Source: an uncultured cyanobacterium (GTDB taxonomy: Bacteria > Cyanobacteriota > Cyanobacteriia > Cyanobacteriales > Cyanobacteriaceae). From it: DNA of 64,000 bases. The translations under genes and the position numbers were made by a program. The notes beneath the pieces were generated by a model. The model was not told the DNA's origin and ran no database searches. It saw only the letters and a program-made list of their open reading frames with translations. This document shows, piece after piece, positions 22,683-58,943 of the stretch. The stretch lies in assembly GCA_963749915.1 (NCBI GenBank), contig CAVVOP010000005.1, forward strand, positions 64,001-128,000, given 5' to 3'. Position 1 is the stretch's first letter. Each line of letters starts with the position of its first letter.

Positions 22683-23870
22683 ATGATCAGAAAATTACGG
22701 CAGTGGCTTAATCTTATTCCCGACAACACTATTGAAGCCCACAATCCTCTCGAGAATGATAGGGATCATAATTCCAAGGAGGCAAGTTCATTATCTCACA
22801 ATTCAGAAAAACCTGTCAAAGATGCCGATCTAGAATTTCTCTTTCATCAACTGTTAGAAGGTGTCGTTAATGGTTGGCAAGAAAATCGCATTGAGCAGTT
22901 TTTTGAAAAATTAGAGCCGAGAATCACCGTAGAAACATGGCTTGATTGGTTGCACCGTTATCGTAATCAGTTAATGTCTTCTCCTGCCCCTCATTATCAT
23001 TTTGCTGCTAGAATGATTATCTTGGGGGAAATAACTGCTTCTTTACCCTTTCTTCGTGCCGTTGGTGATTTAGCCTATGAAATTGGTAAAGAGTTATTAA
23101 ATCGGGCGGAGAATAATCCTTTAGTGGAGTCTTTACTACCTCGAACCGCTAATATTTCATTTGATATTAGCCAAGATGCTACAATTAACGATACAGATCA
23201 AGATCCTGAAGTGGCGGAAATTCCCACTTCTTTAGGTGATATTCTCTCTTTATTACAAAATGATGTGAACTTTGCTCAAGATACCGCCCGTCAATTAGGT
23301 ATCGAGACCCTTGATCCGGGTGTAATTATGGAGAAAATAGTTCAAGAAACTGAGTTAACTTCTCTTGTCACCTCAACAGATTCCATTTCTCCTGAAACTG
23401 TTAATGAATTGTTTCATCTCGGTTTGGAAAAAGCCGCAGGGGGAGATTTGGAGGGGGCAATCACCTATTGGGATCAAGTCTTAGCCGCCGATGAGAACTT
23501 TACCCAAGCATGGCATAATCGAGGTAGTGCACTTGCTTACTTAAAGCGTTTTGAAGAAGCAGTGAGAAGTTTTGATCACGCTATCGCTTTAGATGTTAAT
23601 TATCATCAGTCATGGAATGATCGTGGTAATGCTTTATATAGTTTACAATGTTGGCAAGAGGCGATCATTAGTTGGGATCGCACTTTGGGACTACAACCAA
23701 ACGATTATCAAGCATGGTATCATCGAGGTTTAGCGTTGGAAAAATTAAATTTATTCCCAAAGGCGATCGCTAGTTTTCAAAGATGCCTTAGCATTTATGA
23801 TAATTACACCCCTGCCAAAAATGCCTTAACAAGAGTTTCAAGGTTGCTTGAGAAAAAAATAGATAACTAG
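22683..23870 (+). CDS. TPR-repeat protein
   Basis: C-terminal TPRs (AWHNRG, SWNDRG, AWYHRG); its TAG stop is the first bases of the adjacent MITE. Confidence 0.85.
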   Translation: MIRKLRQWLNLIPDNTIEAHNPLENDRDHNSKEASSLSHNSEKPVKDADLEFLFHQLLEGVVNGWQENRIEQFFEKLEPRITVETWLDWLHRYRNQLMSSPAPHYHFAARMIILGEITASLPFLRAVGDLAYEIGKELLNRAENNPLVESLLPRTANISFDISQDATINDTDQDPEVAEIPTSLGDILSLLQNDVNFAQDTARQLGIETLDPGVIMEKIVQETELTSLVTSTDSISPETVNELFHLGLEKAAGGDLEGAITYWDQVLAADENFTQAWHNRGSALAYLKRFEEAVRSFDHAIALDVNYHQSWNDRGNALYSLQCWQEAIISWDRTLGLQPNDYQAWYHRGLALEKLNLFPKAIASFQRCLSIYDNYTPAKNALTRVSRLLEKKIDN

Positions 23871-24081
23871 TGGTCTGTCAAGATAGTTTTGAGGGACTGG
23901 GAACGGATAATTTTGGATCTCTTGGTCGGCATTCCCTCTCTTGGTGGACGTTCCCTTGCGACTTCCGTCGTCGCGGGCTTCCACCGCTTGCGCCTTTCGG
24001 CGGCGCGGGGTCCGACCGCTTTTGGATTTTGGATTTTGGAGGATTGTTTTATCCCTCATTTCAAAATTGGCAGACCACTAG
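23867..24081. mobile_element. MITE (non-autonomous element) carrying a nested 102-bp insert
   Basis: TIRs CTAGTGGTCTGTCAA / TTGGCAGACCACTAG; body nearly identical to 58706-58810 apart from the insert. Confidence 0.85.
23919..24020 (-). mobile_element. Two nested copies of a 51-nt structured small dispersed repeat
   Basis: Inner copy 23938-23988; outer copy 23919-23937 plus 23989-24020; 41/51 identical with compensatory changes; absent from the empty MITE copy. Confidence 0.8.
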
Positions 24082-24116: not shown

Positions 24117-24947
24117 ATGACTCACTCATTCCTTTTTTTAATCATGGTTAACCCGGTGAACTCGACTCAATGGCAGTGGCAAGAAACAGAAAAGGGAACT
24201 TATCTCGCCTGTAAATTATTGGCGGATTGGCAACATGGCTTTTTTTCTAGCCATTTTCACCAACAACCGCCAGAAATTTTGGTTAAATATCTTGACCCTT
24301 CCGCTTCCAGCTATCGAGTCAAACAAATCCACAGTAATATAATGGTCACAACAGATACTATTGATTATCATATTCTTAGGGATGCTAATGAGAATTTAGT
24401 GGAAGGAGATGGAATTATTACCGAAAAATCTTTGCAATCCGTTTGGTGTGCTAGTGCCGACTGTACACCTGTCTTAATGGCCGATATGGAAAGCGGTAAA
24501 GTGGCAGCTATTCATTCCGGTTGGCGTGGTACATCTACTAAAATTGTCCCTAATGCCATCACTTTTTTTCAATCTCAAGGTTGTAAGTCGGAGAATTTAT
24601 TATTTGCCTTAGGTCCTGCCATTGATGGTAAGGTTTATCAGGTAGAGACACAAGTAGCGGTTAAAGTGTTAAATACTGTCATCCCTAACTCTGAAAATTT
24701 GGATGTTGATAGTATTTTAGCGGAAGGTTATCTGTTACCTAATCAAGTCATTCTCCCCGATAACGAACCGAATAAAGTAAGGTTAAACGTCACTCAGGTA
24801 ATTAATTTACAAATTCAACAACAAGGCATTTCCCCCGATAATATTGCGATCGCTCCTTATTGTACCTATCAAGTCCCTGAATATTTCTTTTCCTATCGCC
24901 GTACAAAAGAGAAAAATATACAATGGTCTGGTATTGTATCCTCTTAA
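24117..24947 (+). CDS. pgeF: Peptidoglycan editing factor PgeF / YfiH laccase-domain protein
   Basis: QIHS, ADCTPV, HSGWRGT, GPAI, FFSYRR. Confidence 0.9.
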   Translation: MTHSFLFLIMVNPVNSTQWQWQETEKGTYLACKLLADWQHGFFSSHFHQQPPEILVKYLDPSASSYRVKQIHSNIMVTTDTIDYHILRDANENLVEGDGIITEKSLQSVWCASADCTPVLMADMESGKVAAIHSGWRGTSTKIVPNAITFFQSQGCKSENLLFALGPAIDGKVYQVETQVAVKVLNTVIPNSENLDVDSILAEGYLLPNQVILPDNEPNKVRLNVTQVINLQIQQQGISPDNIAIAPYCTYQVPEYFFSYRRTKEKNIQWSGIVSS

Positions 24948-58705: not shown

Positions 58706-58810
58706 TAGTGGTCTGTCAAGATAGTTTTGAGGGACTGGGAACGGATAATTTTGGATTTTGGATTTTGGAGGATTTTTTTATCCCTCATTTCAAAATTGGC
58801 AGATCAGTAG
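58706..58810. mobile_element. MITE, empty copy
   Basis: TAGTGGTCTGTCAAGATAGTTTTGAGGGACTGGGAACGGATAA(TTTTGGA)3...TCCCTCATTTCAAAATTGGCAGA matches 23868-24081 minus the insert. Confidence 0.85.
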
Positions 58811-58869: not shown

Positions 58870-58943
58870 CGGGACTGACGGGACTCGAACCCGCGACATC
58901 TTGCGTGACAGGCAAGCACTCTAACCAGCTGAGCTACAATCCC
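58870..58943 (-). tRNA. trnD: tRNA-Asp(GTC)
   Basis: Cloverleaf GGGATTG...CAGTCCC-G; anticodon arm CTTGC-CTGTCAC-GCAAG; TTCGA loop; CCA not encoded. Confidence 0.96.

What the first reader, a model, noticed from the sequence alone, without database searches (positions are those of the whole stretch)
23919..24020. Self-nested 51-nt structured mobile element with covariation and a minus-strand GNRA loop
Seen: the inner unit CTCTTGGTGGACGTTCCCTTGCGACTTCCGTCGTCGCGGGCTTCCACCGCT (23938-23988) sits inside the outer unit CTCTTGGTCGGCATTCCCT|TGCGCCTTTCGGCGGCGCGGGGTCCGACCGCT. Both are 51 nt with 10 differences. Seven differences are compensatory: GGTGGA/TCCACC vs GGTCGG/CCGACC, and GCGAC..GTCGTCGC vs GCGCC..GGCGGCGC, where one position co-varies with two alternative partners. 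An eighth swaps one GNRA tetraloop for another on the minus strand (GGAA vs GAAA). There is no ORF, TIR or clear target duplication, only 1-2 nt junction ambiguity (T or CT). Established: tiny structured SDR repeats that insert into tandem repeats and into each other are described in Nostocaceae, with the mechanism unresolved. Inference: structure is selected at the RNA or ssDNA level, pointing to a minimal mobile element moved in trans by an unidentified enzyme. I do not recognise this family.
Basis: partly seen in the sequence, partly recalled or inferred. Interest (0 to 1): 0.8.

Follow-up and report, generated by a model that had tools for sequence, protein, structure and literature searches.

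The report
Self-nesting 51-base cyanobacterial hairpin element
A 51-base, gene-less piece of hairpin-forming DNA has inserted into a copy of itself inside a larger jumping element; it belongs to a real family of tiny mobile DNAs in many cyanobacteria, and the enzyme that moves it is still unidentified.

Summary
An empty copy of that MITE is in the same window. The unit has 24 strong matches in this genome, mostly passengers of MITEs and an IS1-like element. It occurs in 11 of 301 phylum genomes, in plasmids and in a phage, and exceeds 100 matches in three genomes. Covariation holds: 8 of 14 pairs change on both sides. The minus strand is the folded one. GNRA is not required: 36 GNRA and 25 GNYA among 61 tetraloop-type cores, and 42 cores have a triloop. 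Insertion adds 51 bases without duplication, mostly at N^T, and often stays in frame. No mover was found. IS110 and group II reverse transcriptase are missing from some high-copy genomes; Y1 (HUH) transposases are in all 14 carriers but also in 11 of 13 non-carriers. Best guess: single-strand HUH cut-and-join in trans (0.4). SDR-like, but longer and outside Nostocaceae. The scan noted this family before on other DNA.

The parts
23937..23987 (-). Inner 51-nt element. On the minus strand: 2-nt lead, 6-bp stem P1, 2x4 internal loop, 3-bp stem, 2-nt bulge, 5-bp stem, 7-nt loop, 6-nt purine-rich tail
   Evidence: 65.9 bits with model R1, which was built with this copy in it
23918..23936 (-). Outer element, plus-strand left part (3' part on the folded strand), cut at its 2-nt bulge by the inner copy
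   Evidence: intact solo copy of this variant on contig C30
23988..24019 (-). Outer element, plus-strand right part (5' part on the folded strand)
23911..23917 (+). One TTTTGGA heptamer left of the nest
24020..24040 (+). Three TTTTGGA heptamers right of the nest (STRR-like tract)
23868..24080 (.). Carrier: 213-nt MITE-like element (111 nt without the nest) with terminal inverted repeats, TA at both ends; its left end supplies the stop codon of the upstream gene
   Evidence: 36 signature hits: 28 empty, 7 with this nest or a derivative, 1 with a different triple nest
58706..58809 (.). Empty 104-nt copy of the same MITE in the window (three heptamers, no element)
22683..23870 (+). Upstream gene, 395 aa, TPR repeats; no sign of a role in mobility
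24117..24947 (+). Downstream gene, 276 aa, PgeF/YfiH family; no sign of a role in mobility

Best explanation
A non-autonomous micro-transposon of 51 nt. SHOWN: it inserts whole, without target duplication, at weakly specific sites (plus strand N^T, mostly C^T), which include its own bulge; one strand's fold is conserved; it also travels as a passenger in MITEs, insertion sequences, tnpB genes, plasmids and a phage. INFERRED: the folded minus strand is recognised as single-stranded DNA by a host- or IS-encoded HUH (Y1-type) transposase acting in trans, is cut 3' of its A-ending tail and at the A-ending target upstream, closes to a 51-nt circle, and is joined into another single-stranded site that ends like its own tail. 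The 17-codon length and lack of stops in most frames let copies persist in genes. The pair in this window arose by two such insertions (outer into the MITE heptamer tract, inner into the outer's bulge) and was then copied with the MITE.
For: Empty vs filled sites differ by exactly the unit: MITE tract (27 empty matches), a second repeat (8), an IS1-like A-run (1), self sites. At a C^A site the leading T is absent from the empty target (all 150 listed of 161 matches; filled copy L035), so there is no duplication. In 94 non-repeat events the base after the cut is T in 85% (background 30%) and the base before is C in 50% (21%); C^T is 40 of 85. The element's own end-to-start join also reads C^T, as cut-and-join at like sites predicts. 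Stems are almost purely Watson-Crick (848 of 896 cells) with wobble on one strand only (31 vs 5); loops are GNNA or a triloop, not strictly GNRA, which I take to suit DNA at least as well as RNA (own knowledge). Strand-specific recognition of bulged ssDNA hairpins and cleavage at CT or CA are shown for TnpA-REP (PMC8266576, passages). Y1_Tnp is in 14 of 14 carriers; IS110 in 5 of 14; Xenococcus PCC 7305 (110 matches) has no group II maturase match and one reverse transcriptase, below every NCBIfam cut-off.
Against: No enzyme is linked to it. Y1_Tnp is also in 11 of 13 non-carriers. The two RAYTs of this genome do not track with the element (7 of 14 carriers vs 4 of 13 non-carriers; 4 of 14 vs 0 of 13) and their flanks carry other repeats. 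There is no GTAG tag or other guide 5' of the stem. The C^T match to TnpA-REP is on the plus strand, whereas the folded strand reads A^G. The free base in the tail does not covary with the target. The tail end is ragged: many copies in G007 are 50 nt, which fits reverse transcription better than a precise cut. With RNA parameters the conserved fold is strand-specific (86 vs 18 of 112 cores), with DNA parameters hardly (85 vs 73). The phage with 13 matches showed no Y1 or RT among 76 ORFs scanned.
Confidence: 0.4

Rival explanations
1. An RNA-mediated element: the minus strand is released from read-through transcripts as a small (perhaps circular) RNA and is copied into DNA by a borrowed reverse transcriptase, primed at a nick in the target.
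For: The RNA fold equals the covariation structure, is 75% of the ensemble and is strand-specific. One end is exact and the other ragged by 1-2 nt. Head-to-tail arrays of 2-3 copies with partial units at four sites of one phage could be rolling-circle products. Group II maturase matches in 12 of 14 carriers. An RNA route was proposed for SDRs (Elhai 2008, recalled, not read).
Against: Maturase matches also in 10 of 13 non-carriers; none in G326 with 110 matches (draft genome). Few wobble pairs, no GNRA requirement. No splice joint in RNA contigs of 4 of 4 runs over one copy (contigs drop rare forms). None of 12 RT loci carried the element. Arrays can also come from slippage or repeat insertion.
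Confidence: 0.27
2. A substrate of a recombinase (IS110 bridge type, integron-like or other) that recombines a 1-2 nt core with no duplication.
For: No duplication; 1-nt junction ambiguity at most sites; stem, asymmetric internal loop, bulge and variable tip recall attC sites (recalled).
Against: IS110 found in 5 of 14 carriers, not in G007, G325, G327, G329, G330, G332, and broken in this genome. The crossover lies in unpaired ends, not in a stem as in attC (structure; attC recalled). Integron integrases were not searched.
Confidence: 0.13
3. No dedicated enzyme: hairpin fragments are captured at stalled forks or breaks, spread by gene conversion and by carrier elements, and double changes come from template switching between the arms, not from selection.
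For: In this genome most copies are passengers; the same nest sits at the same tract position in two different MITE families; slippage deletions and small rewritten blocks occur in nests.
Against: 134 independent sites with exact ends and a biased target; nests at one fixed position in 25 of 119 loci; length held at 48 core bases in 112 of 134 variants; one-strand wobble bias.
Confidence: 0.12

Closest known systems
Small dispersed repeats SDR1-8 of Nostocaceae (Elhai et al. 2008, Genome Res 18:1484). Paper not held; details recalled, plus citing passages in PMC5861425 and PMC4390886
   Same: Gene-less, structured with compensatory changes, precise insertion, found in heptamer tracts, minitransposons and copies of itself (recalled); mover unknown.
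   Different: 51 nt against 21-27 nt (recalled); found in Okeania, Moorena, Xenococcus, Crocosphaera, Spirulina, Baaleninema and others, whereas PMC5861425 states that no SDR-like repeat was found outside Nostocaceae; not targeted to HIP1 as SDR5 is; sequence identity to any SDR could not be checked.
REP/REPIN elements and TnpA-REP (RAYT) (PMC8266576, PMC3733652: passages)
   Same: Bulged hairpin, one active strand, non-autonomous, CT/CA dinucleotide at the cut.
   Different: No GTAG tag, no paired inverted units, no copy flanking a RAYT here; it inserts into GTAG-type repeats as a guest.
IS200/IS605 ends and their palindrome-associated miniature derivatives (recalled; guide logic from PMC8266576 passages)
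   Same: No duplication; target end resembles the element's own 3' end.
   Different: One hairpin spanning the unit instead of two end hairpins; weak target instead of a fixed 4-5-mer; no ORF-bearing parent found.
Rickettsia palindromic elements (recalled, no call)
   Same: In-frame hairpin insertions into protein genes.
   Different: Much shorter; mostly in repeats and transposase genes.

Membership tests
SDR1-8 (Nostocaceae) | Length 21-27 nt (recalled) | tested here: not met
   51 nt in most copies, 49-50 in some
SDR1-8 (Nostocaceae) | Confined to Nostocaceae | tested here: not met
   Named carriers span many other genera; one Rivularia record among 119 loci; 0 of 37 genomes of unnamed family f7
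SDR1-8 (Nostocaceae) | Inserts in heptamer tracts, minitransposons and itself | tested here: met
   31 of 134 events in heptamer tracts; MITEs; 25 of 119 loci nested at the bulge
SDR1-8 (Nostocaceae) | Structure backed by compensatory change | tested here: met
   8 of 14 pairs, 133 double-change cells, 0 of 500 shuffles
SDR1-8 (Nostocaceae) | Sequence match to a named SDR consensus | not testable with these tools
   Paper not held
REP / RAYT substrate | GTAG tag 5' of the stem | tested here: not met
   Absent on both strands
REP / RAYT substrate | Copies flank a RAYT gene | tested here: not met
   Both RAYT loci of this genome carry other repeats; other genomes not checked at locus level
REP / RAYT substrate | Cut at CT or CA | tested here: inconclusive
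   C^T 40 and C^A 5 of 85 events, but on the strand opposite the folded one
IS200/IS605 miniature derivative | Ends shared with an autonomous element | tested here: not met
   20 left ends fetched from G007 (12) and G326 (8) were nests, truncations or contig ends; none framed an ORF
IS200/IS605 miniature derivative | ssDNA cleavage by TnpA | not testable with these tools
   Needs an in vitro assay
IS110 substrate | Cognate recombinase in carriers | tested here: not met
   5 of 14 carriers
MITE | Terminal inverted repeats and target duplication | tested here: not met
   The 51-mer has neither; its carrier has inverted repeats
Self-splicing intron | Removed from RNA | tested here: inconclusive
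   No joint in 4 of 4 RNA contig sets over L126; contigs drop rare forms and may hold DNA
Any Rfam 15 family | Score at gathering threshold | tested here: not met
   None; best E-values 5.8 and 9.5

The most novel reading that the evidence does not exclude
The 51-mer is the prototype of a distinct class of gene-less single-strand micro-transposons: one hairpin carries both ends, a borrowed HUH enzyme (or an undescribed one) joins it wherever the target ends like its own tail, its 17-codon size lets it add peptides to proteins, and plasmids and phages carry it between distant cyanobacterial families. It would give a 51-base substrate for solving how SDR-type repeats move.
Probability: 0.3. Interest if true: 0.75.

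Novelty: new variant of a known kind. Interest (0 to 1): 0.48.

Why it matters
How SDR-type repeats move has been open since 2008 (recalled). This family makes the question testable: defined ends, 134 sequence variants that mark what is fixed and what is free, a target bias, empty and filled sites in one genome, and named cultured carriers (Moorena producens 3L, Xenococcus PCC 7305, Crocosphaera watsonii WH 8501). It also extends SDR-like elements beyond Nostocaceae and shows 17-residue in-frame insertions in TnpB, P450, MetH and Uma2 frames. It is not a new kind of behaviour, no mover was found, and the scan has reported this family and several similar ones before.

Tried and rejected
Rfam at two thresholds: nothing. 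GNRA as a rule: rejected. One-base target duplication: rejected at a C^A site; a second such test found no empty site in 3 genomes. ORF-bearing parent: not found among 20 fetched left ends of 148 listed. Link to reverse transcriptase: the copy near an RT on C8 is inside an IS1-like element; one copy lies upstream of a group II RT in G128, but 0 of 12 other RT loci hold one. IS110, group II maturase, Y1_Tnp and two RAYT queries over 27 genomes did not single out a mover; these genomes are related and several are drafts, so this is not a statistical test. Phage G324: no RT or Y1 among 76 ORFs of 130 aa or more. Element-to-target covariation: one pair just over the 95% null (0.243 vs 0.217), not trusted because of relatedness. 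Splicing: no joint. INPHARED phages: no match. Dropped before counts: 8 non-cyanobacterial loci and viral locus L130, whose arms do not pair; own-genome duplicates; also L131-L134 and L024 as duplicates of fetched regions, and L175-L187. Hammerhead, hairpin ribozyme, group II domain V, k-turn, attC and tRNA-end resemblances were considered by eye from memory and set aside. Paper searches listed no description of this family; most subscription papers are not in that library. Not tested: integron integrases, IS91-type Y2, IS607 serine recombinases, replication-strand bias, the metagenome collection.

Full report
Observation. The two units and their 10 differences are as described. The host is a cyanobacterium of about 36% GC (gene types recognised from memory); the nest is 65-70% GC. 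It lies between a TPR gene and a PgeF-family gene, in a TTTTGGA tract inside an element with terminal inverted repeats at 23868 and 24080. An empty copy of that carrier is at 58706-58809. Rfam has nothing.

Copies in this genome. A covariance model (65 solo units chosen from the 134 variants) gives 30 matches at E up to 10, 24 of them below 1e-8. Most are passengers. The carrier MITE has 36 signature hits: 28 empty, 7 with this nest or a derivative, 1 with a different triple nest. A second MITE family has 19 hits: 6 nested, 1 with the solo outer unit, 12 empty (two of these were mislabelled 'single' by my script). Four copies of another variant sit in a third repeat (4 of 13 rows), and four in the A-run between the two frames of an IS1-like element, of which one empty copy exists. 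So about 24 copies reflect roughly seven or eight insertions (my count). Whether the 102-nt nest moved between the two MITE families as a unit or by conversion between their shared tracts is not resolved.

Distribution. The pattern is in 5 of 41 related genomes and 0 of 6 congeners, and in 11 of 301 genomes across the phylum, with 0 matches for the reversed control. Model matches: 149 in Okeania SIO2C9, 129 in Moorena producens 3L, 110 in Xenococcus PCC 7305, 13 in Crocosphaera watsonii WH 8501 (each capped at 150 scored candidates) and 13 in one phage contig. Four plasmid records match; no INPHARED phage does.

Structure. From 211 units came 134 distinct cores, 112 of them 48 nt. On 63 distinct sequences 99.7% of cells pair, 8 of 14 pairs change on both sides, and 0 of 500 shuffles reach the covariation score; slid controls score 0.10 or less against 0.45. 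The covarying columns were free in my search pattern. The six invariant pairs and the tail were fixed by it, so their invariance is not evidence, and the shuffles ignore relatedness. Wobble pairs fall on the minus strand 31 times and on the plus strand 5 times. Loops: 61 tetraloop-type (36 GNRA, 25 GNYA), 42 with two more pairs and a triloop, 9 other. The fold is strand-specific with RNA parameters (86 vs 18 of 112) and nearly symmetric with DNA parameters (85 vs 73). RNA vs ssDNA is therefore not settled.

Ends and target. Empty sites give an insertion of 51 nt. At a C^A site the leading T is not in the target (with L035), so it belongs to the element and nothing is duplicated. The other end is fixed by my pattern; no base next to it was gained or lost at the empty sites found. 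Many copies in G007 lack the leading T (50 nt), and two copies here are 49 and 50 nt. Of 134 independent events, 94 are in non-repeat DNA, 31 in heptamer tracts, 6 in the element and 3 in tandem; self-nests are undercounted because like ones were merged. Nests at the bulge occur in 25 of 119 loci. The target is weak: T after the cut in 85% (background 30%), C before it in 50% (21%). In 28 events a reading frame spans the empty site, and 21 stay open (some frames may be chance). Of 23 such frames scanned, 10 are TnpB-like, 5 other transposases, 3 host genes (P450, MetH domain, Uma2) and 5 unassigned. I read the excess of mobile genes as neutral space plus carrier amplification (inference). RNA contigs from 4 of 4 runs keep one such insertion with no joint.

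Mover. None was identified. Over 14 carriers and 13 non-carriers: Y1_Tnp 14 and 11, group II maturase 12 and 10, IS110 5 and 1, two RAYT queries 7 and 4, 4 and 0. Xenococcus PCC 7305 has one RT, not of group II type by cut-off. No parent with the same end and an ORF was found. The phage has head-to-tail arrays of 2-3 units, some in frame in its genes, and no RT or Y1 match.

Mechanism. Shown: precise insertion without duplication, target bias, self-nesting at one site, one conserved folded strand, passenger spread. Inferred: an enzyme in trans. I favour single-strand HUH cut-and-join (0.4), because the target end resembles the element's tail, there is no duplication, and IS110 and group II RT are missing from some high-copy genomes. 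Against it stand the missing guide tag, the ragged tail end and the lack of any linked gene. An RT route is second (0.27), then a recombinase (0.13) and no dedicated enzyme (0.12).

Known systems. It works like the SDR repeats of Nostocaceae but fails their length and range. Elhai 2008 was not held and is recalled; its supplement could bear on identity. Seen as passages only: PMC5861425, PMC4390886, PMC3116915, PMC2884548, PMC3733652, PMC8266576. All other papers were seen only as search listings with abstract starts. Seven searches listed no description of this family. Earlier scan notes describe a 51-base element in a tnpB gene and a family of about 50 bases in cyanobacteria; these are AI notes and not independent support, but I confirmed the same behaviours here.

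Verdict. Real, mobile, well defined, a new variant of a known kind, mechanism open. Interest 0.48.

Noticed in passing
G000:C32:94360-94510: Triple nest in the same MITE: a 51-nt unit holds a sister variant with a different tail, which holds an unrelated 45-nt hairpin element, each at the same bulge site.
   Followed up: partly
G000:C5:328420-328466, C26:33120-33166, C8:279207-279253: Sister or chimeric family that keeps the tail and outer-stem arm but has a rewritten middle block; weak model scores.
   Followed up: partly
G000:C31 near 15755 (empty) and C8:889706, C8:291049, C16:327, C31:13176 (filled): The element sits in the run of seven A between the two frames of an IS1-like element, the likely frameshift site (recalled); four of five copies seen carry it.
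   Followed up: partly
L186:1192-2349 (G000:C8): A 385-aa reverse transcriptase that looks DGR-like (recalled motif; below the group II cut-off) directly beside that IS1-like element; a similar 356-aa RT lies on C1.
   Followed up: no
L182:1330-1998: RAYT gene flanked by GTAG-type repeats and with a further GTAG-type hairpin inserted near its start.
   Followed up: partly
L206-L210 (phage contig G324): Several independent insertions of different variants, four as tandem arrays, some in frame in phage genes; one copy holds further nested hairpins.
   Followed up: partly
L212, L215, L221 (G007): Another small hairpin element of about 45-50 nt is nested at the bulge region of the 51-mer, in one case with a further insert in its own loop.
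   Followed up: no
L213, L214, L152, L220 (G007); L032, L060, L125: In nests, the bases beside the inner copy are often rewritten to the complement of nearby sequence, as template switching would give.
   Followed up: no
window 23868-23870: The MITE's left end supplies the stop codon of the TPR gene.
   Followed up: no
window 58870-58943: tRNA gene on the minus strand, 60 bases from the empty MITE copy.
   Followed up: no
NC_019749.1:51185-51215 (hit H4): Partial match inside an annotated DNA adenine methylase gene on a Stanieria plasmid.
   Followed up: no
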